Shown piece after piece: positions 226 to 11,289 of a stretch of DNA of 16,039 nt. Made by a program: the position numbers and the translations under genes. The notes under the pieces were generated by a model that was not told the DNA's origin, searched no databases, and saw nothing but the letters and a program-made list of their open reading frames with translations. Position 1 is the first letter of the stretch. Every line of letters starts with the position of its first letter. The DNA is taken from the IMG/VR virus record IMGVR_UViG_2681813230_000004; one strand, given 5' to 3'. The stretch comes from a virus (lineage: Duplodnaviria; Heunggongvirae; Uroviricota; Caudoviricetes).

Positions 226-279
226 GATTTTGGGGAGTAATATTTTGGTAAGGCTTCAAGGTTCATGCTCGTTCTCCAC

Positions 280-1329
280 TTACGCCAGTACGCCAATTGC
301 CAGCGCGCGATCGATAAAACGAAATATCAGCTCCAGTTGGGAGCCATACTTATCTTCAAATGCCACTGTATCCGTATGCAGCTCGTTGTGATGCTTTCTG
401 CACAAAGGCAACACAAAGAGATCATGTGCTTTTGTTCCCATTCCGCCCTGCCCGTGACCAATCAGATGATGCGGATCGTCGGCTGGCATACCGCAGCAAA
501 CACACGGCTGTGTCTTAACCCAACGTGTGTATTTCTCCTTAACCCAGCGGCGACGTTTAGGCAGCTTCATGAAAGATTCCGGAGACTCTGGATCAACGGT
601 GATGCTTACCACCGTCTTTTCCTGTGGTGATTTTTGTTGCTGGTGGGCGTAAGGCAACGGTGCAAGATTTTTTGTGCGTTGTTTCAATATGCTGGTGGCG
701 GTCTGCTCTCCCGGTACGATGTCGCTTTCGCGGTACACCGAGCAGATTTTTTCCGCTGGTAATCCCAGCGAACGACGCGATACAGCCTCAGGTAGTGCAT
801 CCACCACCTGATTGCAGACCGCCCACCAGGATAATTCAGCCAAAGATAATTCCCGCTCCTGCGTACCGCTTATTGCGTGACGGATGACGTCAATCACCCA
901 TGCTGTCAGATTTTGTTGAGCAAGCAGCTCCAGTGATTCCGATGTCTGGTCACGCAGTTGGTTGTCGCAGTGCCAGCACAACACCATTGCGCCGGTACCA
1001 TAACGGTGAATGACTGTTTCAGTGTGATGGTAATCGCCATTAGGCCACTGGCAGGATGTAACATGACGTAATAGCCAGTCGGACAATGCGCCAACGCCGC
1101 CAGCAGCACGAATCACCCGTTCGTTACTAAAAAACGGCAGCAATGTTTTGTCTTCCGCCAGCGGCTGGCGAACGGCAGGAACGACTCCGGATGGCAGATT
1201 ACGCATGCTTTTTGGTTCCGGTTCCACCAGCACTCGAGGATTATGAAATATCTGTATGGATTCACGGCCCGGCTTAAGGACCACCAGCCCAAGCTCAGGC
1301 ACCAGAACAGGTCTAAGTAATACCCGCAC
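280..1329 (-). CDS. ydfU: YdfU-like prophage protein with C-terminal DUF968/HNH-like Cys-His motif
   Basis: Long minus-strand ORF. The C-terminal segment CVCCGMPADDPHHLIGHGQGG...LPLCRKHHNELH is a Cys/His HNH-like motif (DUF968/Ref-like). Start placed at GTG 1329 (GGAGG 4 nt upstream, about 349 aa, the length I recall for K-12 YdfU); the ORF track's extended start at 1368 or ATG 1206 are alternatives. Confidence 0.6.
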   Translation of the reverse strand: MRVLLRPVLVPELGLVVLKPGRESIQIFHNPRVLVEPEPKSMRNLPSGVVPAVRQPLAEDKTLLPFFSNERVIRAAGGVGALSDWLLRHVTSCQWPNGDYHHTETVIHRYGTGAMVLCWHCDNQLRDQTSESLELLAQQNLTAWVIDVIRHAISGTQERELSLAELSWWAVCNQVVDALPEAVSRRSLGLPAEKICSVYRESDIVPGEQTATSILKQRTKNLAPLPYAHQQQKSPQEKTVVSITVDPESPESFMKLPKRRRWVKEKYTRWVKTQPCVCCGMPADDPHHLIGHGQGGMGTKAHDLFVLPLCRKHHNELHTDTVAFEDKYGSQLELIFRFIDRALAIGVLA

Positions 1330-1330
1330 G

Positions 1331-1609
1331 TTACCTCCAGATCCGTTGCTGGAAAGTGCGGGACGCACGTGGTGGGCGTTCGGAATAAGGCAGCCTGACA
1401 GAGATTATCCAGTGCCGATAGTCGAGACTGAGAGCTTTCTTAACCTCGAACCCGCGCCTGCGGTAAGAATGAATCAGCCATTCGGCCTGTTCTGCAGTGC
1501 ATGGAGGGTGCTGGAACCATTCAGACTTGAATGCGTGAGAATACCGCCCGTGCGTGCAGGCAAGAACGGGCGAATTATCAGAATTGTAATATTTTGCGTT
1601 GCGTGCCAT
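1331..1609 (-). CDS. hypothetical 92-aa protein
   Basis: ORF with GGAG about 8 nt upstream of its ATG. Its stop lies 1 nt before the ydfU GTG, suggesting coupling. No family recognised. Confidence 0.35.
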   Translation of the reverse strand: MARNAKYYNSDNSPVLACTHGRYSHAFKSEWFQHPPCTAEQAEWLIHSYRRRGFEVKKALSLDYRHWIISVRLPYSERPPRASRTFQQRIWR

Positions 1610-1675
1610 CGGTTTTCTCCGGTGGCACGGTGTTACTCAGCGGGAGTTCAGCCCCGCGCAAGATTGTAGATGAGT

Positions 1676-1927
1676 TTATTCTCCTGAAAAAGCAGAAAAG
1701 CCAGCTTTTATTCCGATCTCTTTCAATGCCTGTAATGAAGTGACAAACTCACCTTCGCGCAAGATAAATCCGTCCGTGACCCGAGCATCCACAAAATTAA
1801 TTAACGCAGCCCCATTCTTTCGCAAACACATAATGCGGTAATGACTAACAAGATTTCCATTTTCAACGCACACAGCATAGAGGCCATCTTCACAAAAAAT
1901 TTTACGCAGTTCTTCGATGTTCATCAT
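1676..1927 (-). CDS. rem: Rem (Qin prophage small protein, 83 aa)
   Basis: 83-aa ORF in the position of rem between ydfU and hokD; length matches K-12 Rem. Confidence 0.7.
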   Translation of the reverse strand: MMNIEELRKIFCEDGLYAVCVENGNLVSHYRIMCLRKNGAALINFVDARVTDGFILREGEFVTSLQALKEIGIKAGFSAFSGE

Positions 1928-2042
1928 CAGAATCCTTCCGGATAATTAGCTCTCCCCTTTAAGGGACCATCCCTCTTATCCCTGCGCGCTACTTAAGTAT
2001 TTTTGATTCTATTCCGGCACCGTCCAGAACTTCAAACGCGTT

Positions 2043-2076
2043 GAAAATAAAAACAAAAACCCGCCGAAGCGGGTTA
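2043..2076 (-). terminator. Rho-independent terminator of the relB-relE-hokD operon
   Basis: On the minus strand, an AACCCGC-TTCG-GCGGGTT hairpin (2058..2075) is followed by a T-rich tract (TTTTTGTTTTTATTTTC), about 70 nt downstream of the hokD stop. Confidence 0.6.
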
Positions 2077-2143
2077 AGTGCGGGTGCGTTGAGGATGCCT
2101 GCCACATCAGAGGTGGCGAGGGATTTCTCCCCCGCCGGGTCTC

Positions 2144-2299
2144 TTACTCCTCAGGTTCGTAAGCTGTGAAGACAGCGACCTCCGTCTGGCCGGTTCGGAT
2201 TCGTACCTCGCAGAGGTCTTTCCTCGTTACCAGTGCCGTCACTATGACGGTTAAACAGATGACGATCAGGGCGATTAACATCGCCTTTTGCTGCTTCAT
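2144..2299 (-). CDS. hokD: HokD (RelF) type I toxin, 51 aa
   Basis: Hand translation of the reverse complement gives MKQQKAMLIALIVICLTVIVTALVTRKDLCEVRIRTGQTEVAVFTAYEPEE, a Hok-family sequence. Below the ORF-track size cut-off. Confidence 0.85.
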   Translation of the reverse strand: MKQQKAMLIALIVICLTVIVTALVTRKDLCEVRIRTGQTEVAVFTAYEPEE

Positions 2300-2370
2300 A
2301 GCCTGCTTCTCCTGTCAACGCAAAGCAGAAGTGTCACCTTCGGTGCGAAACAGAGATGTCATGCTTTGGT

Positions 2371-2658
2371 TCAGAGAATGCGTTTGACCGCCTCGCTATA
2401 TACTTCCGAGCGTTCTCTTTTCCCAACAGAAATCACGAAAACGACAACTTTCTCGTCTATAACCTGGTATACAAGGCGATAGCCTGAAGACCGGAGCTTA
2501 ATCTTGTAACAATCAGGCATACCACGGAGCTTGTTTGCTTCAATCCGGGGTGACTCAAGTACTTCAACCAGCTTCTTTTTCAACTGTTCACGTACCGTCG
2601 AGCCCAGCTTTCGCCATTCCTTTAGTGCCCGCTCGTCAAAATCCAGAAAATACGCCAT
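2371..2658 (-). CDS. relE: RelE mRNA-interferase toxin (95 aa)
   Basis: Translation MAYFLDFDERALKEWRKLGSTVREQ...VISVGKRERSEVYSEAVKRIL matches RelE. Confidence 0.9.
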   Translation of the reverse strand: MAYFLDFDERALKEWRKLGSTVREQLKKKLVEVLESPRIEANKLRGMPDCYKIKLRSSGYRLVYQVIDEKVVVFVISVGKRERSEVYSEAVKRIL

Positions 2659-2897
2659 CAGAGTTCATCCAGCGTCACACGTACTGGCTTAGGATTACGA
2701 AGCCGTTCTTTCACTATCTCCACAAGTTCAGCATCTTCATCACTCAGGAGTGTCTGTTTGAACGGCAAGCGTTCATTGTCAGCGATATACTCGAGCATGA
2801 GACGAAGCGCTTCAGAAGGAGTTACACCCATTTTTTCAAGCGCGGCGTAAGAACGCGCTTTAAGTTCATCGTCAATACGCAGGTTAATGCTACCCAT
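2658..2897 (-). CDS. relB: RelB antitoxin (79 aa)
   Basis: Translation MGSINLRIDDELKARSYA...PKPVRVTLDEL matches RelB. Its stop overlaps the relE start by 1 nt. Confidence 0.9.
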   Translation of the reverse strand: MGSINLRIDDELKARSYAALEKMGVTPSEALRLMLEYIADNERLPFKQTLLSDEDAELVEIVKERLRNPKPVRVTLDEL

Positions 2898-2908
2898 GTC
2901 TTACACCT

Positions 2909-2934
2909 CTTGTAATTACAAATGTCATTACAAG
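2909..2934 (-). promoter_or_regulatory. relBE operator/promoter region (relO-like dyad repeats)
   Basis: CTTGTAATTACAAATGTCATTACAAG lies immediately upstream of relB and contains repeated TTGTAAT/ATTACAA half-sites. RelB/RelE autoregulation at such a site is established. Confidence 0.55.
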
Positions 2935-3227
2935 TATCGCACTACAACATGCTTAGGGCAAGTCACGAAGGAAGTCAGAAAGTAGTCGTAAGAACGGTGA
3001 TCACTGTCCGCTTTGTGCCAGGAGCAGCCATTGCTAAGTCCATCCTGTATTGTGCAGGTCAGCTCGTTTTTAAAGAGTCCGGCCATCATCTTACTGGTAC
3101 AGACACCATATACTTTGTGACGGTCAGGCTACATATGCACAACTCAACTTATTCATCTATTTTTTGCTTTAGCATGTCAGTGTTGCTTTCTCGTCGGCGG
3201 GTGAGCGGTGACCTGACCTGTCGATAA
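2922..3227 (+). CDS. ydfV: YdfV-like hypothetical protein (101 aa)
   Basis: 101-aa ORF between relB and flxA, the position and length of K-12 ydfV. Its start codon lies inside the relO dyad, so coding status is uncertain. Confidence 0.35.
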   Translation: MSLQVSHYNMLRASHEGSQKVVVRTVITVRFVPGAAIAKSILYCAGQLVFKESGHHLTGTDTIYFVTVRLHMHNSTYSSIFCFSMSVLLSRRRVSGDLTCR

Positions 3228-3379
3228 AGGAACGTAGCACGTTTTATGCAACACCCGCATGCGGCAGAAAATTATTGCCGAACGTTTACCCCTGTCAACA
3301 AGCTTTACTTTCTGAGGCGCGCCAGCCCGCGAGGAAAACAATCTGAACATCAAACAATTAATGACACAAGAAATACGAT

Positions 3380-3406
3380 TAAAGATTTTTTTGTGCATGC
3401 CGATAG
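3380..3406 (+). promoter_or_regulatory. sigma-28 (FliA)-type promoter of flxA
   Basis: TAAA (3380..3383), a 15-nt spacer, then GCCGATAG (3399..3406), against the consensus TAAA-N15-GCCGATAA. It sits about 24 nt upstream of the flxA ATG, which is preceded by AGGAG. Confidence 0.6.
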
Positions 3407-3429
3407 TGCTTTTTTAAAAGGAGAAATCT

Positions 3430-3762
3430 ATGTCTGTCACAATTCAGGGAAATACCTCAACCGTTATTTCAAACAACTCCGCCCCGGAAGGAACATCAGA
3501 AATAGCCAAAATCACAAGACAAATTCAGGTGCTGACTGAAAAGCTTGGGAAAATCTCATCGGAAGAGGGGATGACGACACAGCAGAAAAAAGAAATGGCT
3601 GCATTGGTACAGAAGCAAATTGAAAGCCTCAGGGCTCAACTGGAGCAGTTGTTAAGGCAGCAGGCAGAGAAAAAGAATAAAGACGCGACAGTTCAGCCTG
3701 ATAAAAAAGAAGAGAAAAAAGACGATACAAATACCGCTGGCACCATTGATATTTACGTCTAA
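3430..3762 (+). CDS. flxA: FlxA (FliA-regulated prophage protein, 110 aa)
   Basis: Translation MSVTIQGNTSTVISNNSAPEGTSEIAKITRQIQ...GTIDIYV matches FlxA. Confidence 0.85.
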   Translation: MSVTIQGNTSTVISNNSAPEGTSEIAKITRQIQVLTEKLGKISSEEGMTTQQKKEMAALVQKQIESLRAQLEQLLRQQAEKKNKDATVQPDKKEEKKDDTNTAGTIDIYV

Positions 3763-3776
3763 GTGACAGCCGTATT

Positions 3777-3799
3777 GTGGCCCTCATCGGGCCACTTTT
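3777..3799 (+). terminator. Rho-independent terminator after flxA
   Basis: GTGGCCC-TCATC-GGGCCAC hairpin followed by TTTT, starting 15 nt after the flxA stop. Confidence 0.6.
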
Positions 3800-4198
3800 C
3801 GCCATCAGCCTTTTCTTTAAAGACATATTATCTTTGTATCATTTCTGATAGTTAACATTACAAGATATAAGTAATGGACGCACTCCCAATTAGTCTATTT
3901 AAATCGCCACGAGTTTAACTGACAACCCATGATCAATTATGAATTGCAACTATTTCTGTAGTCACTTTTGTGGGGACAGTCCACAAAACTGCCAACTTCC
4001 GCTTCTTGCTCTTAGCGGACATTAGCATAGGCTATTTACCATAACGCCTCATTACGCGCACCGCCCAGACTGACTCAGCGCGTTTCTGGCATATCCCCGG
4101 TAAAACAAGTAACAAACCACCCGAAAATGAACACCAGAAACGCGACTTAAGAATCTACCCTATGAATGGATATGCACTCAACCGAATCGATCTTGGTT

Positions 4199-5540
4199 TC
4201 AATCTTTTTTATCGGGATCAGGCTTCTTTTTAGGTAACTTCGGGGGCTTAACTTGCTGATGACTTTGCGTTCGGCGCGTAAGCCAGGGATGGTCAGCTTT
4301 AGGTTTAACATAGTATTTTGAGCGTAAATCAATACGGGCATTATCCACTCGTTCATGGACACTCTTTTCATCATCCAGTGGTATAGGCTCCGGGCCATCA
4401 ACATACTTTTCCCAGCCCAGCGCTTTCCCGTCATACAGAACGTTAATTTCACCGTCAAAGTTCTCGCATACAGTAACAACCGAATGCCTAAGTCGATATC
4501 CCCGGCCCTCACTGCGTACCTGAAACGCACTGCTTTTGTACTGGAAAGTGAGATTTTTAGACAGAACGCGCTTCGCCTGTAGGCTGAAGATATAACCCAG
4601 TTCCTCTTCAGAATGGTGCACATCAAGATGAGCATTATCAGTAGTACGAGGCGACGTAGCGAACCGGTTGTTATAGGCTTCAATAAAGGTCGGCAACCAT
4701 GCATTTGCTGTTTCAATATCACTGATATTCTGAAGCCGCATTTCTTTGACCAGCCTGTCCTGTAGTGTCTGATTGGCGCGCTCTACCCGCCCTTTTGCCT
4801 GCGGGCTGTTGGCATGGATTGGCTCGATGCCCAGTGTCTTTATCGCACGAGTGAACTGGGTCAGCTCACCTTCCCGCTCTGGGTTATTTACCCTGAATAT
4901 ACTGTGTCTATCAGAGTAGAGAGCGAGCGGTACGCCATGATCATTAAGGTAACCCCGGAGGGTTTCCATGTAAGCCCGGGTTGTTTCAGCAGGCACAAAA
5001 CGCAACGCCATCAACGCACTGGTGGCATCATCAATGAAAACGATCAGTGTACATCTGGGGCCTCGATTTTCAAACCAGTCATGAGGTGAGCCATCAATCT
5101 GGATCAGTTCACCGTAAGATGGTCGTCGCATGCGGCGTTGATATATACGGGCAATTTTACGACGGCGTTCACGCCATACCCCCCTCTTCTATCATCCACT
5201 TTCTGAGAGTTTCAACGGATAAAGATAAACCGTGTATCTCGCGCAATTTTTCGCACGCAAACGTAGGTCCAAAATCAGCGTAACGGCCTTTGAGGAGTGA
5301 AATTACTGTTGCTCTGAATTCAGTAGAAAAGGAATTATTAGGACGCTTTCCACGTCGGTGGGAAACCAGACCAGAAGGCCCTTCATTTCTATACCGTTGC
5401 ACCAGACGTTTAACCTGCCGAATAGAAATGCCAATGCGTGCCGCAGCTTGTTCCTGAGTAATATGTCGATTAATTGACTCCTGAATAATCTGAAGTCGGT
5501 GGAGTTCCTTATGACTCATCGTAACAGTTTCTTTGGTCAT
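4199..5540 (-). pseudogene. rve (DDE integrase-core) transposase-like gene, IS481-like, split into a 123-aa HTH part (5169..5540) and a 310-aa catalytic part (4199..5131)
   Basis: The N-terminal ORF has an HTH-like segment (ITQEQAAARIGISIRQVKRLVQRY). The C-terminal ORF has integrase-core signatures (LYSDRHSIF; PQAKGRVERANQTLQDRL). Both are on the minus strand in frames offset by +1, and the offset sits at a G6 run (plus-strand C6 at 5179..5184). Removing one G would give a single ORF of about 440 aa. Confidence 0.65.
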
Positions 5541-5874
5541 GAAAAATCCCCCAGAGAATTGTCTGGGGACATTTTAGAATGGTTCAAAGGGGACATTACA
5601 GCTTGGTGTTAACAATAGCCTGCTTCTCCTTGCCTTTCGGCACGTAAGAGGCTAACCTACATGTGTCTGGCATGAAATTGGCCTCAGATTAATGTTAAGC
5701 GTCTTGCAGGACGCGTAATGTTAACTGGGGCTTTTCTCTACCTGCCGTTGGTGTTCGTGCCCGAGGCAGATAGCCTCAAGCACCCGCAGTCATTCTACTT
5801 AACTAAGATTTCCCCGCAAACCGTTTTTGTCCAGCACAGTAAATATCCAACTAAACCAATGGAGTTCGCTGTAT

Positions 5875-6054
5875 TTACCGCCAGTATTCAATGCACATGA
5901 CCGCCATGAACACCCCTAAAAAAAGGGCATTTATATATCCAAATATTAATATCAAAACATCAACTTTTTCCATATACCTTGCTGTGAAGATGATGGGCAT
6001 ACATGATGCGAACAACCAGAACGCAACAAACAAAAACTGCAATGCGTTTTTCAT
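5875..6054 (-). CDS. hypothetical small membrane protein (59 aa, two predicted hydrophobic helices)
   Basis: ATG at 6054 is preceded by a perfect AGGAGG 4 nt upstream. Translation MKNALQFLFVAFWLFASCMPIIFTARYMEKVDVLILIFGYINALFLGVFMAVMCIEYWR is strongly hydrophobic. It lies in a visibly AT-rich stretch. Confidence 0.4.
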   Translation of the reverse strand: MKNALQFLFVAFWLFASCMPIIFTARYMEKVDVLILIFGYINALFLGVFMAVMCIEYWR

Positions 6055-7206
6055 TATTCCTCCTACAATCAATGTGCAATTACATTTAAACACACCTCAA
6101 TTTGGCCGGACATATAAATATCTAAACCAGAAAAAATCACTTACATAGCGTTACAAACTCTTTAGTCTAAAGGTTCATCGTAAAACATTCCCCATACTTA
6201 TCAGTCCGTTCCGCGCCAGGTAGCTCATTGCCTTATCTGGCAACCTGTAATCAGGTTTCCGCTTTTTCAGTTGGCTGGTCGTTTAACCGACATAGTTAAC
6301 CCATTAATCTAGTTGCCGGATGTTGGTGGATTTTCGCGTTTTAGTTGTTCATAAAAGTGCACAGCTTTAACCAATTCTTCTGATGTAACCGGGACTGGTG
6401 AGGCAGTGAATAAGGCCTGAATTTGATAGTTCGGCCTGTCGTTACAATCCTCTTTTTTCGGTACATATTTCCAGTCACCAGACCACTACTTCCCCTGAAA
6501 GTCCGTAACGCCTTTTTTCACGTAGCGATATCGCCATGTCACTGGTTTTGCTTGCCCCGCCGTTTCATGCCCTTCCTGATAATTAATCTCGCTCATTCAT
6601 CGCCCCACTCATCACAATATGCTTCGACCGGAGTTTTTCCCGCTTCATAGTCATCACGCTAGGATTCGACATCAGCAGCACTTCCACCGCGTAACTCACC
6701 ATAGTCCATTAATAGTTCATCCCGCTCTTCAAAACTGATGTTATATTTAGCTGAACAAAAATCAGCCACTTTGTTCTTCCTCATCGTCTTTTATTTCGTG
6801 GTATGAGTAATTGCAGTAGTTAAAGAAAATTTCTTATGCTCCGTCATGAATTTCATCAGGTGTTGCGTCATCGTCCACTTCGAATACATCCTCAAAATCT
6901 CCACCAGCTATTCCCGTTTCAATAATAATTTTGAACTTTCGCATTTCACTACCGCCCTTTCGGGCGGCCTCCTGATGTTCTGAGGGTGCAGAAATCCATC
7001 CGGTTAAGGATTAAGTTTTATTTACAGAACTGAATTTAATTATTCAGATATACGTATCTGTAACCTTACGAATCTACTCACTGGATGCCTCTTTCATAAA
7101 AATAATCCAGTGGGTTTTATCGTTTTTTCCCTGTTCGTTGACAGATAACAGGCTTTCTATCTGTCAGTGCCAGAATCTGGCTTACCGGTATTTGCGTTTC
7201 ATTCCA

Positions 7207-7563
7207 TTAAAAAATCAGAACGCCGTGCGGCCTCAACACCCGAAAAGCTTCTTTAAATCTCTGTCGCAAATCATCACGCCAGGCATCTTTATTCAGCCGT
7301 CCATATTTCTTTCCCATCCAGGCGTTATCACCAACACGCTCAAGATGCGGAGGGTCTAATACAACCATCGAAAAAGATGCGTCTGCAAATGATAATGCAC
7401 GAAAATCTGCGATAATGTCAGGGCTGATAATCAAGCGTCTCCCATTGCGTAATGTGTATCCTTCTTTTCTGATATCGCTAAATATCGCCCGTTCGTCAGA
7501 CTTATCGAACCAGAACATGCGGCTGCCACAGCACATATCAAGAATGGTTGCCGGTGCACTCAC
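7207..7563 (-). CDS. SAM-dependent methyltransferase core, probably a remnant (118 aa)
   Basis: Motif I-like ILDMCCGS near the N-terminus and an amino-MTase motif IV-like VVLDPPH about 60 aa later. Too short for a complete Rossmann-fold MTase. GTG start; an in-frame stop lies 6 codons upstream. Confidence 0.45.
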   Translation of the reverse strand: MSAPATILDMCCGSRMFWFDKSDERAIFSDIRKEGYTLRNGRRLIISPDIIADFRALSFADASFSMVVLDPPHLERVGDNAWMGKKYGRLNKDAWRDDLRQRFKEAFRVLRPHGVLIF

Positions 7564-7982
7564 TGCGCCACGTCCTGAAAATTACCCTGATAGAAAGCCA
7601 GTATGCGCTGCATAACTTCGCTCTTCCGGCACTCGCGACAGATTATGTTTAGGCGACTGTCGTAGCGACGTATTTCTCCGTCAGGTGATGACCAGATAAG
7701 GTCCGGATCAACCACAGCAGGTTTCTTCACCTTTGCCCTCGAGAGTTTTTTGCGGGCGTTTTGCCAGTCCTTACGCGCCTGTTCAGAGGGGAATAACCCG
7801 TAGCCGGAGTTGTATACATCGCCACTGGCTACCAGCTCTCTGGCAAGAACGCTCATCAGATATCTAGTCGCACCTGTTTTAGCTTCCAGTTGCCGTAACG
7901 TCTCACGGCCGCTCTGGCGCACGAGTTCCACCACCTGCCATTTAATTTTTTCCCGCTCTTCTTGTGTAAAAACTTTTGCCAC
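7560..7982 (-). CDS. hypothetical phage protein (140 aa), possible winged-helix segment
   Basis: ORF directly downstream of the replication gene on the same strand. Its stop overlaps the MTase-like ORF start by 2 nt. No family recognised. Confidence 0.45.
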   Translation of the reverse strand: MAKVFTQEEREKIKWQVVELVRQSGRETLRQLEAKTGATRYLMSVLARELVASGDVYNSGYGLFPSEQARKDWQNARKKLSRAKVKKPAVVDPDLIWSSPDGEIRRYDSRLNIICRECRKSEVMQRILAFYQGNFQDVAQ

Positions 7983-8022
7983 AAGTCCCCCTTAAAATTA
8001 CCTCATGACCTGAAATCAACAC

Positions 8023-8988
8023 TTATCCTCTGAAACCAGGCGGAATTTCTGTATCCGGTTCAGAAATATGATTAACACAACGCTGTACAGGTGAACGTCC
8101 CAGGCGGATGACCAGTTCGTCCCATTTTTCGCGGAGCTTTGACGGGCTCATGATGTTTTTTACCCAGAATGAATCTCGCTGAACCCGACCAAACATTTCG
8201 CAAATTTGTCTGTGGCTTCTGCCATCCAGCATCCGCATTGTGCGCACGTCATTGGCCCAGGCAGTCCAGTTAGGCTCTTTTGGTCGCATGATCTCGCCAT
8301 CATCACTGGCTGCCTGTTCGTAGAGACCCACGATCCGCCCCCAGATCCACTGCGCACACGCCAAATCCTCCCTGCTACCCCACTGGCGTTTTTTCGCACT
8401 AAACACAACCGCGTCGGAGTTCCGGGTTAAAAAATCCTGTTCAGTCGTCTGCGGGTCCGGTTGCGAAGCTTCCGGACGAAAAGTGTTTTTATTCTCTGTA
8501 GTAATCTCTGTTGTATTCTCTGTAAGATCATCAGGCCATTTTGACCCGATGACATTGGGTCGTTTTGAATCAATGGAGCGTTTCATTTTGACCTCTTCCA
8601 TCGTGTCATTTTGACCTGATGGAGCGGCGCATTTTGAACCGATGGATTCGCTCAATTTGCCACCATCTAAAAGCTCGCTCCCATAGTTGATCGTGTAGAA
8701 ATTGGTCATATCGCGCTTTGATTTATTGAGCTTTTCACAACGCAAAAGCCCCAGCGTTTTCAGACTTGCAAACGCGCGCTTTAACGTTGACTCTGACCAG
8801 AATGGGAACTGTTCCAGCCATTGTTCCGTTGTGTTATAAATCCAGCGAACACCATCACATTCCATGCCGGAGTTGGTATCTCTCAACCAGTAGTGCAGTT
8901 GTTGCAAAACAATGGCTTCGTTTAAGCCAATTTTCATTGCCAGCTGCGTGTTTATAACCAGTGGGCGTTCAGCAAAAAGAAGGCTCAT
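8023..8988 (-). CDS. phage replication initiation protein (lambda O-like, iteron-binding)
   Basis: ORF of about 321 aa from ATG 8988 (the ORF track extends it to 9042). The N-terminal region is HTH-like (MKIGLNEAIVLQQLHYWL). The central low-complexity linker is encoded by iterons. Function assigned by analogy to lambda O gene organisation. Confidence 0.65.
   Translation of the reverse strand: MSLLFAERPLVINTQLAMKIGLNEAIVLQQLHYWLRDTNSGMECDGVRWIYNTTEQWLEQFPFWSESTLKRAFASLKTLGLLRCEKLNKSKRDMTNFYTINYGSELLDGGKLSESIGSKCAAPSGQNDTMEEVKMKRSIDSKRPNVIGSKWPDDLTENTTEITTENKNTFRPEASQPDPQTTEQDFLTRNSDAVVFSAKKRQWGSREDLACAQWIWGRIVGLYEQAASDDGEIMRPKEPNWTAWANDVRTMRMLDGRSHRQICEMFGRVQRDSFWVKNIMSPSKLREKWDELVIRLGRSPVQRCVNHISEPDTEIPPGFRG
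8537..8647. repeat. replication-origin iterons inside the replication gene
   Basis: Five copies of CATTTTGAC-like 15-20-bp units start at 8537, 8561 (CGTTTTGAA), 8584, 8607 and 8630, with 23-24 bp spacing. A TCTCTGTA triplet repeat lies at 8498..8528 and an AT-rich segment follows at about 8650..8740. Confidence 0.6.
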
Positions 8989-9490
8989 AATTCCATCCAG
9001 CTTTTTGTTGGTATTGCTGTCGATACGCAAGCTTGAAAGCAATTGCTTTTTCTATAAGTTCGTCAGTTTCACGATCCACTACGGCAGGATCAGCAAAAAG
9101 CAGTCCGGACTCCACCACATCGCCATATTCTTTGTTTAACCCGGCGATCATGCACGTGATGCTTTTTCCGTCAGTAATTTCACGATACAACCTGAAATCA
9201 CTAATCCGGATAGCCTCCATAATCGCAGGCACTAGCGCCGTGAACTTTTCACGCTTATCCCTGGTGTCGATAGCCTTCCAGCGTTCGAATATCTTCACTC
9301 GATTAACACCAAGCGCTCGCTGATCAACCGCGCCACCTTCATCTGTGACACGCTGAACATCGATGTTCGGGCGCTCTTTCAAAGCCCAGAATGCTTCAGT
9401 GATTAATATCGTCGCCTGCTCCTGTGTCATTCCTGGTCGACATATCCAGGCATCCAGAGCCTCACGAGCCTGTTCAGGAGTGATTTTCAT
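8969..9490 (-). CDS. hypothetical phage early protein (173 aa), in the cII/YdaT position
   Basis: ORF immediately downstream of the dicC-like gene and upstream of the replication gene, same strand. No motif recognised. Confidence 0.45.
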   Translation of the reverse strand: MKITPEQAREALDAWICRPGMTQEQATILITEAFWALKERPNIDVQRVTDEGGAVDQRALGVNRVKIFERWKAIDTRDKREKFTALVPAIMEAIRISDFRLYREITDGKSITCMIAGLNKEYGDVVESGLLFADPAVVDRETDELIEKAIAFKLAYRQQYQQKAGWNYEPSFC

Positions 9491-9701
9491 TGTTCAACCG
9501 CCCCGCCCGCTTCGTCTTACGATATTCATCATAAACTTTGGGATCATACTGAAGCTCCCCGCCAGATGCCTCCTGTAGACGCATCGCGCGACCTTCAGGA
9601 ACCAGTATCCCCCAAGCAGCAACACTTGCCAGCCTCACTCCTGCGGCATTGGCAAGCTTTGTTTTGCTGCCAAAAAAAGTAATTGCGTCAACTTTAAGCA
9701 T
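9474..9701 (-). CDS. dicC: DicC-like Cro-type regulator
   Basis: Small ORF divergent from dicA. The C-terminal sequence ...VPEGRAMRLQEASGGELQYDPKVYDEYRK... resembles DicC/YdaS-type Cro proteins. ATG at 9701 is preceded by GAGGGGG; the ORF-track start at 9704 is a TTG. Confidence 0.7.
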   Translation of the reverse strand: MLKVDAITFFGSKTKLANAAGVRLASVAAWGILVPEGRAMRLQEASGGELQYDPKVYDEYRKTKRAGRLNNENHS

Positions 9702-11231: not shown

Positions 11232-11289
11232 TTTCTGGTGACGTTTGGCGGTATCAGTTTTACTCCGTGACTGCTCTGCCGCCCTTTTT
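11232..11289 (+). ncRNA. dicF: DicF small regulatory RNA (ftsZ-targeting sRNA)
   Basis: TTTCTGGTGACGTTTGGCGGTATCAGTTTTACTCCGTGACTGCTCTGCCGCCC followed by TTTTT matches the DicF sequence from memory, in the expected position between ydfC and dicB. Confidence 0.8.

What the first reader, a model, noticed from the sequence alone, without database searches (positions are those of the whole stretch)
6590..6944. Decayed small acidic ORFs with in-frame stops in the 6.2-7.0 kb region
Minus-strand hand translation gives protein-like sequence: MRKFKIIIETGIAGGDFEDVFEVDDDATPDEIHDGA (6834..6944), then MRKNKVADFCSAKYNISFEERDELLMDYGELRGGSAADVES (6659..6784), continuing past an in-frame TAG as RDDYEAGKTPVEAYCDEWGDE before a TGA. 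Further coding-like fragments reach to about 6330. The region looks like gene decay rather than non-coding spacer; no ORF-track call covers it. An AGGAGG is separated from the first ATG by a CCGCCC-GAAA-GGGCGG hairpin (6952..6967).
Basis: seen in the sequence. Interest (0 to 1): 0.4.

Follow-up and report, generated by a model that had tools for sequence, protein, structure and literature searches.

The report
Three broken small prophage genes
This stretch holds three small accessory genes of a defective E. coli prophage, each switched off by a premature stop codon, which is ordinary gene decay that is already largely flagged in public annotation.

Summary
The window is the Qin/Kim (dicA-dicB-relBE) cryptic prophage of an E. 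coli IAI1-like strain. On the minus strand, 6944..6175 holds three consecutive small early genes, all disabled.

- Gene A (DUF7167, 60 aa when intact): AAA→TAA at codon 37.
- Gene B (58-aa acidic protein, phrog_519): ATG→GTG start, and invariant Trp37 TGG→TAG.
- Gene C (phrog_660, about 120-140 aa): CAG→TAG at codon 37, a second stop, and a frame change.

Intact copies of all three exist in other E. coli prophages and in phages. One intact gene B carries this lineage's own diagnostic residues. Substitutions are mostly synonymous (pN/pS 0.05-0.27), so these were real genes inactivated recently. The exact stop-bearing alleles occur in about 480-500 of 5,426 complete E. coli genomes, so they are not sequencing errors. 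RefSeq already marks A and C as pseudogenes; only the gene B remnant has no annotation. What the ancestral proteins did is unknown: no family, defence-system or structural match gives a function.

The AGGAGG-hairpin-ATG arrangement is real. It is part of a roughly 95-nt leader found upstream of five unrelated gene families in lambdoid prophages. It resembles the hairpin-bridged ribosome-binding sites of phage T4 genes 38 and 25, but this is untested. Interest is low.

The parts
6762..6944 (-). Gene A pseudogene. DUF7167 family, 60 aa when intact. The only disabling change is AAA(Lys37)->TAA at 6836..6834.
   Evidence: Translation. Pfam PF23768 scores 49.2 bits against a cut-off of 24.4 on the window's conceptual product. 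The intact homologue matches phrog_1997 at E=9e-31. The nucleotide alignment shows T versus A at 6836. PGAP annotates an 'internal stop' pseudogene here. In the AF2 model the stop falls inside helix 29-40 and removes strand 46-51.
6593..6769 (-). Gene B pseudogene. A 58-aa acidic protein (phrog_519) when intact. The start codon has changed from ATG to GTG (6769..6767). The invariant Trp37 codon TGG has become TAG (6661..6659). The stop is TGA at 6595..6593. The gene overlaps A by 8 nt and C by 4 nt. No annotation lies under any of the exact-match rows listed.
   Evidence: alignment to intact CFT073, MLI114, 640R1 and pPE4 copies; the intact homologue matches phrog_519 at E=4.5e-23. W37 is an invariant column. 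P0015 is an intact copy of this lineage; the exact 41-nt allele occurs in 496 genomes, and every exact-match row listed has feature 'none'.
6175..6596 (-). Gene C pseudogene (phrog_660). It has CAG(Gln37)->TAG at 6488..6486 and a second TAG at 6311..6309. The C-terminal tail (6300..6175) survives only in another reading frame.
   Evidence: L010 has an intact 119-aa copy with Q37; pPE4 has P37; phrog_660 at E=6e-43; the tail matches phrog_660 profile positions 156-193 at E=1.5e-11. PGAP annotates a 'frameshifted; internal stop' pseudogene.
6968..6973 (-). AGGAGG Shine-Dalgarno-like hexamer, 23 nt upstream of gene A's ATG.
   Evidence: Sequence. It is conserved in all relatives examined.
6952..6967 (-). 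CCGCCC-GAAA-GGGCGG hairpin lying wholly between AGGAGG and the ATG. With the hairpin folded, the effective spacing is 7 nt.
   Evidence: Predicted in every fold. It travels with gene A into an unrelated upstream context in L009. The exact motif precedes five other gene families with the start codon 6-11 nt after the stem. Covariation is not significant. No T-run follows, so it is not terminator-like.
6974..7047 (-). Conserved leader of about 75 nt upstream of the SD-hairpin. It is shared with relatives even where the upstream and downstream genes differ.
   Evidence: Homology to CFT073, MLI114, 640R1 and pPE4 starts near 7047. The same leader lies upstream of five unrelated downstream gene families. 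There is no Rfam match at E<=1.
7074..7563 (-). Neighbouring SAM-dependent methyltransferase remnant. A 118-aa ORF spans 7207..7563, and PGAP calls a pseudogene at 7074..7518. It is a further sign of decay in this segment.
   Evidence: The near-identical ORF in strain W is annotated as an intact gene.

Best explanation
Window 6944..6175 (minus strand) holds three consecutive accessory early genes of a lambdoid prophage, here the defective Qin/Kim prophage of E. coli. They lie between the replication module (O-like gene, DUF977, methyltransferase) and the hok/rem/ydfU/antiterminator module. Each gene has been inactivated by point mutation.

- Gene A (DUF7167): a nonsense mutation at codon 37.
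- Gene B (58-aa acidic protein): a nonsense mutation at its invariant Trp37, plus a weakened start codon.
- Gene C (phrog_660): a nonsense mutation at codon 37, plus a later stop and a frame change.

The remnants are non-functional. They persist because the prophage is inherited vertically and small lesions are not purged.

Shown: the genes, the mutations, the intact relatives, the past purifying selection, and the population frequency.

Inferred: that the truncated products are inactive. In the gene A model the stop cuts the only long helix and removes the third strand. In gene B the stop removes the most conserved C-terminal half.

The ancestral function is not known. My best guess, by inference only, is that A and B were small, very acidic (pI about 4) early phage proteins that bind and inhibit a host or rival protein, in the way many small acidic phage early proteins do.
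For: - Context: the 1.1-kb region is 100% identical to E. coli IAI1 and many other genomes, and lies within dicC/dicA/dicB/relBE/hokD/ydfU.
- Families: PF23768 DUF7167, phrog_1997, phrog_519 and phrog_660.
- Intact homologues at 89-93% DNA identity, in the same A-B-C order with the same 8-nt and 4-nt overlaps.
- Each stop is explained by one base change: AAA->TAA, TGG->TAG, CAG->TAG.
- pN/pS is 0.05-0.21 among intact copies and 0.09-0.27 between the window and intact copies.
- W37 of gene B is invariant across Escherichia, Enterobacter and Salmonella homologues.
- The exact stop-bearing 41-mers occur in 481 (A) and 496 (B) of 5,426 complete genomes.
- In 49 IMG/VR prophage loci, 15 have all three genes intact. 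13 have the A and B stops, always together, and always with the GTG start in B.
- Other independent lesions of the same genes (frameshifts, deletions) are common in the databases.
- The neighbouring methyltransferase is also degraded.
- No RNA family, and no protein family for any alternative-frame ORF, competes for the interval.
Against: - No expression or protein data are available, so residual activity of the 36-aa N-terminal peptides cannot be excluded.
- The window lineage shows almost no variation (>=99% identical in about 500 genomes). Selection on the remnants cannot therefore be measured.
- All three stops fall at codon 37. This is improbable under a simple model (1-2.5e-4, post hoc) and is not explained by decay alone. 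However, gene C's stop also occurs in loci with intact A and B (L006, L040), so the stops arose as separate events.
- The ancestral function is unknown. There are no PADLOC or NCBIfam hits and no significant structural neighbours.
Confidence: 0.93

Rival explanations
1. The truncated 36-aa N-terminal ORFs of A, B and C are retained as functional micro-proteins. On this reading the premature stops are adaptive, not degenerative.
For: All three stops lie at codon 37. The alleles are fixed in about 9% of complete E. coli genomes. Gene A's translation signals are intact.
Against: - In the AF2 model of gene A the stop cuts helix 29-40 and deletes strand 46-51.
- Gene B loses its invariant C-terminal half and has also lost the near-invariant W16 and its ATG start.
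- Gene C's stop arose separately from the A and B stops.
- The frequency of the alleles is explained by clonal inheritance of one prophage lineage that is >=99% identical.
- A derivative allele (P0102) deletes the stop again.
Confidence: 0.04
2. Full-length proteins are still made at a low level by stop-codon readthrough or suppression of the TAA and TAG codons, so the genes are leaky rather than dead.
For: Two of the three stops are TAG, the stop codon that my own background knowledge (not tested here) says is most readily read through in E. coli. The downstream reading frames of A and B are still open and conserved.
Against: No suppressor tRNA or recoding signal was looked for or seen. Gene A's stop is TAA. 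Gene C has a second stop and a frame change. Gene B's start codon is also degraded.
Confidence: 0.02
3. The interval is non-coding spacer and the ORFs are chance, or the stops are sequencing errors.
For: No ORF of 60 aa or more is open on the minus strand here.
Against: Family matches reach E=1e-13 to 1e-43. Intact homologues exist. pN/pS is well below 1. Identical alleles occur in about 480-500 independently assembled complete genomes.
Confidence: 0.01

Closest known systems
DUF7167 (Pfam PF23768; phrog_1997), small acidic prophage proteins of Enterobacteriaceae
   Same: Gene A's conceptual product matches the full 60-position profile above the gathering score. It is 92% identical to WP_001224662.1 of CFT073.
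   Different: The window copy has an in-frame TAA at codon 37. The family itself has no known function, and no paper in the library mentions it.
phrog_519 and phrog_660 (phage protein families of unknown function)
   Same: Genes B and C are members by sequence. They occur in the same A-B-C order in intact prophages and phages.
   Different: Both window copies are interrupted. Gene B corresponds only to the C-terminal part (positions 76-137) of the 143-position phrog_519 profile.
Qin/Kim cryptic prophage of E. coli (dicA-dicC-dicF-dicB, relBE-hokD, ydfU, ydfT)
   Same: The window carries this gene set, including DicF RNA. From my own knowledge of K-12, Qin is a defective prophage full of pseudogenes.
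   Different: The IAI1-type copy keeps the replication-side genes (O-like, DUF977, methyltransferase) and this A-B-C cassette. From memory these are absent from K-12 Qin; I did not check this here.
Hairpin-bridged ('split') ribosome-binding sites of phage T4 genes 38 and 25
   Same: A strong SD lies too far from the AUG (23 nt here; 22 and 27 nt in T4). A stable hairpin lies entirely between the two, and reduces the effective spacing to 7 nt (5 and 11 nt in T4; PMC3014915).
   Different: There is no sequence relationship. There is no mutational or probing evidence here, and covariation is not significant. Here the module is shared by several unrelated genes, which that review does not mention for T4.

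Membership tests
Pseudogene (inactivated copy of a protein-coding gene) | Intact homologues of the same gene exist in related genomes | tested here: met
   Genes A and B are intact in L003-L006, L009 and L010. Gene C is intact in L004 and L010. P0015 is an intact gene B of the same lineage.
Pseudogene (inactivated copy of a protein-coding gene) | A disabling lesion lies inside the conserved part of the coding sequence | tested here: met
   TAA at codon 37 of 60 (A), TAG at invariant W37 of 58 (B), and TAG at codon 37 plus a second stop and a frame change (C).
Pseudogene (inactivated copy of a protein-coding gene) | The lesion is real, not a sequencing or assembly error | tested here: met
   The exact 41-nt alleles occur in 481 and 496 complete genomes and in 13-20 IMG/VR contigs.
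Pseudogene (inactivated copy of a protein-coding gene) | No functional product is made | not testable with these tools
   This needs expression, proteomic or genetic data.
DUF7167 (PF23768) | Profile match above the Pfam gathering score | tested here: met
   49.2 bits against a cut-off of 24.4 for the window's conceptual product with the stop masked; 55.1 bits for the intact CFT073 protein.
DUF7167 (PF23768) | Uninterrupted reading frame encoding the whole domain | tested here: not met
   TAA at 6836..6834.
T4 gene 38/25-type hairpin-bridged ribosome-binding site | Strong SD at an over-long distance (more than 15 nt) from the start codon | tested here: met
   AGGAGG at 6973..6968 and ATG at 6944, which gives 23 nt.
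T4 gene 38/25-type hairpin-bridged ribosome-binding site | A stable stem-loop wholly between SD and AUG that brings the effective spacing to about 5-11 nt | tested here: met
   A 6-7 bp G+C stem with a GAAA loop appears in every fold. 7 nt remain here, and 6-11 nt remain in the other five gene families.
T4 gene 38/25-type hairpin-bridged ribosome-binding site | Pairing maintained by compensatory change across relatives | tested here: inconclusive
   Among 14 variants there is one G-C->A-U double change, four G.U wobble types and several mismatches. No measure exceeds the shuffled controls.
T4 gene 38/25-type hairpin-bridged ribosome-binding site | Destabilising the stem lowers translation | not testable with these tools
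   This needs reporter fusions with stem mutations.
Intrinsic (rho-independent) terminator | G+C-rich hairpin followed by a run of T | tested here: not met
   The stem is followed by TAGTGAAATG on the minus strand and by CCTCCTGATG on the plus strand. The terminator scan does not list it.

The most novel reading that the evidence does not exclude
The conserved leader of about 95 nt that ends in AGGAGG + CCGCCC-GAAA-GGGCGG is a portable junction and translation-start cassette of lambdoid prophages. On this reading it acts as a hairpin-bridged ('split') ribosome-binding site, and its shared sequence also serves as a recombination joint through which unrelated accessory genes are swapped in behind the replication module. 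The families seen behind it are DUF7167, a 72-aa membrane protein, xTELT proteins that may be Ead/Ea22-like (not tested), a 173-aa protein and an MQxIK protein. The evidence shows the sharing and the constant 6-11-nt hairpin-to-start spacing. It does not show the mechanism.
Probability: 0.3. Interest if true: 0.35.

Novelty: already known. Interest (0 to 1): 0.12.

Why it matters
It matters little beyond annotation hygiene. Cryptic prophages are known to accumulate pseudogenes, and two of these three are already flagged in RefSeq.

Useful by-products:
- The gene B remnant (6769..6593) has no annotation in any of the exact-match rows listed, out of about 500 genomes with the allele. It could be added as a pseudogene.
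- The native gene boundaries and the three causal point mutations are now defined.
- The A-B-C cassette is shown to be a recurrent, historically constrained set of tiny acidic early genes of unknown function. That makes the intact versions, not this copy, reasonable candidates for functional screens of phage early proteins.
- The shared SD-hairpin leader is a small, testable lead on how accessory genes are expressed and exchanged in lambdoid phages.

Tried and rejected
- **NCBIfam and PADLOC scans of the intact A, B and C proteins:** no hits.
- **Literature:** no paper mentions DUF7167 or the hairpin sequence.
- **Structure-based function for A and B:** the AF2 model of A is usable (pLDDT 78), but the best PDB match has E=0.9 and all viral matches are uncharacterised. 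A weak resemblance to phage p56, an acidic Ung inhibitor, has E=1.3 and TM about 0.4, so it is not evidence. The model of B (pLDDT 61) is too weak to interpret.
- **Rfam, at gathering and at permissive thresholds:** nothing in the finding's interval or in the leader.
- **Alternative-frame and plus-strand ORFs** (6423..6650 +, 6341..6478 -, 6583..6702 -, 6791..6904 -): no PHROG family. They are rejected as genes. Phage records annotate two of them as CDS: 6583..6702 in PhiR42_1, and 6341..6478 as the tail of the 85-aa ORF of 640R1. Those ORFs exist only because of the stops or frameshift in the damaged genes.
- **Hairpin as a terminator:** rejected, because there is no T-run.
- **Hairpin covariation:** not significant.
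- **My own interim idea that gene C is a chimera of two genes:** withdrawn. The out-of-frame tail belongs to the same family, phrog_660.
- **My interim note that the neighbouring hok gene is truncated by the IS:** withdrawn. hokD at 2299..2144 is intact.
- **A programmed or common cause for the three stops at codon 37:** considered and set aside. Gene C's stop occurs without the A and B stops in L006 and L040.

Full report
**1. What is in the sequence**

Reading the minus strand of 6100..7200 and listing ORFs confirms every sequence statement in the finding.

- A 36-codon ORF runs 6944..6834 and ends in TAA.
- A 41-codon ORF runs 6784..6659 and ends in TAG. Its frame continues RDDYEAGKTPVEAYCDEWGDE to a TGA at 6595..6593.
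- More coding-like sequence starts at 6596.
- AGGAGG lies at 6973..6968, and a CCGCCC-GAAA-GGGCGG hairpin at 6967..6952, 7 nt before the first ATG.

**2. Where the window comes from**

The 1.1-kb region is 100% identical to E. coli IAI1 and many other strains. The window is 99.8% identical to IAI1 across 226..9612.

The IAI1 annotation places it in the Qin/Kim defective lambdoid prophage. The neighbouring genes are ydfT (antiterminator), ydfU, rem, hokD, relBE, ydfV, flxA, an IS, a methyltransferase remnant, DUF977, an O-like gene, ydaT, dicC, dicA, ydfABC, dicB and an exonuclease. Rfam finds DicF RNA at 11233..11284.

The interval sits between the replication module and the hok/antiterminator module. 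In lambdoid phages that is accessory early-gene territory (background knowledge).

RefSeq/PGAP already lists two pseudogenes here (window coordinate = locus coordinate minus 901):
- 'DUF7167 family protein, internal stop' at window 6762..6944
- 'hypothetical protein, frameshifted; internal stop' at window 6175..6596

**3. The three genes and their lesions**

Relatives at 89-93% DNA identity carry the same cassette as three separately annotated genes, in the same order and with the same overlaps. These relatives are CFT073, MLI114, 2014C-3050, PRO_A-1505-6W-A, and phages vB_EcoS-640R1 and vB_Apl-pPE4. Translations and a nucleotide alignment give the following picture.

*Gene A (6944..6762).* It is 60 aa when intact (MRKFKIIIETGIAGGDFEDEFEVDDDATPDEIHDEAKDIFFNYCNYSYHEIKDEEEEQNG). 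It belongs to Pfam DUF7167, scoring 49.2 bits for the window product against a cut-off of 24.4, and the intact homologue matches phrog_1997. The only disabling change is AAA->TAA at codon 37.

*Gene B (6769..6593).* It is 58 aa when intact (MADFGSTKYNVSFEEWHELLMDYAELRGGSAADAEAWRDDYEAGKTPVEAYCDEWGDE). It belongs to phrog_519 and has no Pfam family.
- Its start overlaps the end of gene A by 8 nt (ATGGCTGA). In the window that ATG is GTG.
- Trp37 (TGG) has become TAG. W37 is invariant in an alignment of 13 homologues from Escherichia, Enterobacter and other enterics.
- The window allele has also lost the near-invariant W16.

*Gene C (6596..6175).* It belongs to phrog_660.
- It is 119 aa and intact in L010 and pPE4.
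- Codon 37 is CAG in L010, CCG in pPE4 and TAG in the window.
- A second TAG lies at 6311..6309.
- The tail 6300..6175 matches the C-terminal end of the same PHROG profile (positions 156-193, E=1.5e-11), but in another frame. This agrees with PGAP's 'frameshifted; internal stop'.

**4. Were these real genes, and are the stops real?**

Between intact copies, pN/pS is 0.05-0.21. Between the window and intact copies it is 0.09-0.11 for gene A (0.17 against MLI114) and 0.22-0.27 for gene B. Most of the divergence therefore accumulated under purifying selection, and the stops came late. Gene B shows some excess of amino-acid changes, which fits relaxation of constraint.

I used 41-nt queries centred on each stop. 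They match exactly in 481 (A) and 496 (B) of 5,426 complete E. coli genomes. No feature lies under any of the exact-match rows listed for the gene B remnant.

A protein-database search found three informative variants:
- P0015, an intact 58-aa gene B carrying the window lineage's own residues (C5, A7, I11, R16, D17, G24). It is essentially the uninterrupted form of this allele.
- Many other independently damaged forms.
- P0102, a window-type gene A in which a 21-nt in-frame deletion has removed the stop.

**5. Survey in prophage contigs**

I examined 49 IMG/VR loci that carry the cassette.
- 15 have A, B and C all intact.
- 13 have the A and B stops, always together and always with the GTG start in B.
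- Gene C is the most frequently damaged gene.
- L040, like MLI114, has the window-type TAG in gene C with intact A and B.

A second scan gave 20 truncated (36-aa) gene A copies against 85 full-length 60-aa copies among 117 instances.

**6. The codon-37 coincidence**

All three genes are stopped at codon 37. Under a model of one random stop-creating substitution per gene, the chance of a shared codon index is 1-2.5e-4. This is a post-hoc observation. The survey shows that gene C's stop has a different history from the A and B stops. I therefore treat it as coincidence and record it as unexplained.

**7. What the ancestors did**

This is unknown.
- Intact A and B are very acidic: pI about 4, with 20 and 16 acidic residues out of 60 and 58.
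- AF2 predicts a compact beta-beta-alpha-beta fold for A (pLDDT 78). The window's stop lies inside helix 29-40 and removes strand 46-51.
- B is a low-confidence three-helix model.
- Fold searches give nothing significant.
- PADLOC and NCBIfam give nothing, and no paper mentions DUF7167.
- The gene C family also occurs in large virulent coliphages.

By inference only, these look like small early phage proteins that bind host or competitor proteins.

**8. The SD-hairpin**

The AGGAGG-hairpin-7 nt-ATG unit is conserved in all relatives. It travels with gene A even where the upstream flank is unrelated (L009).

The exact 22-nt motif also precedes five other gene families, always with the start codon 6-11 nt after the stem:
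- a 72-aa membrane protein
- xTELT proteins, which may be Ead/Ea22-like (not tested)
- a 173-aa protein
- an MQxIK protein
- one MVTTG protein

A further leader of about 75 nt upstream is shared by DUF7167 and four of those families (all but the single MVTTG instance).

The arrangement parallels the hairpin-bridged ribosome-binding sites of T4 genes 38 and 25, where the spacing falls from 22 to 5 nt and from 27 to 11 nt (PMC3014915). Here it falls from 23 to 7 nt.

The evidence for structure is thermodynamic only. Across 14 variants there is one compensatory pair, several wobbles and several mismatches, and nothing exceeds the shuffled controls. The hairpin is not terminator-like, and the leader has no Rfam match.

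**9. Verdict**

This is ordinary pseudogenisation in a cryptic prophage and is already largely annotated. The only new items are the unannotated gene B remnant and a modest, untested lead about a shared SD-hairpin leader.

Noticed in passing
window 6836..6834, 6661..6659, 6488..6486: All three consecutive genes are interrupted at exactly codon 37 (TAA, TAG, TAG). A simple model gives 1-2.5e-4 for a shared codon index, post hoc. Gene C's stop also occurs in loci with intact A and B (L006, L040), so the events are separate. I treat it as coincidence, but it remains unexplained.
   Followed up: partly
window 6952..7047 (-); L011-L163: The roughly 95-nt leader ending in AGGAGG + CCGCCC-GAAA-GGGCGG lies upstream of five unrelated downstream gene families in lambdoid prophage contigs. 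The start codon is always 6-11 nt after the stem. It may be a portable hairpin-bridged ribosome-binding site or a mosaic joint. It has no Rfam family and no literature hit.
   Followed up: partly
window 5614..5785 (-) and 2144..2299 (-): Rfam finds a full-length sok antitoxin RNA at 5614..5785 (99.8 bits). The intact hokD coding sequence lies 3.3 kb away, at 2299..2144. Compared with CFT073, where the two are contiguous, the window has about 3.3 kb (relBE, ydfV, flxA, ydfW and an IS) inserted immediately upstream of the hokD start codon. The sok/mok leader is therefore orphaned.
   Followed up: partly
P0102 (relative of window 6944..6762): This is a window-type DUF7167 allele in which a 21-nt in-frame deletion between two GAAATT repeats has removed 'HDGA*E' and so the stop codon. 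It gives a 53-aa open frame.
   Followed up: no
L003 2685..2942 (phage vB_EcoS-640R1); L005 1478..1794 (CFT073); window 6341..6478: In CFT073 and 640R1, gene C has a +2 slip in an A-run (AAAAAA->AAAAAAAA). This fuses its N-terminus to an out-of-frame ORF that phage 640R1 annotates as an 85-aa protein. In the same record the plus-strand 'hornerin' CDS lies nearby (L003 2298..2549); I did not examine it.
   Followed up: partly
L004 (PP818812.1, Actinobacillus phage vB_Apl-pPE4): A phage recorded as infecting Actinobacillus pleuropneumoniae carries this cassette at about 90% DNA identity to E. coli prophages, along with other typical coliphage lambdoid genes. The host assignment looks odd and may deserve checking.
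   Followed up: no
window 7074..7563 (-): The methyltransferase remnant is annotated inconsistently. It is a pseudogene ('frameshifted; internal stop') in IAI1, but an intact 118-aa 'class I SAM-dependent methyltransferase' in strain W, for a nearly identical ORF.
   Followed up: no
window 5875..6093 (-): An unannotated 72-codon hydrophobic ORF (MFKCNCTLIVGGIMKNALQFLFVAFWLF...) lies between the orphan sok and gene C's tail. It has no PHROG match, and phage records annotate the opposite strand here instead.
   Followed up: partly
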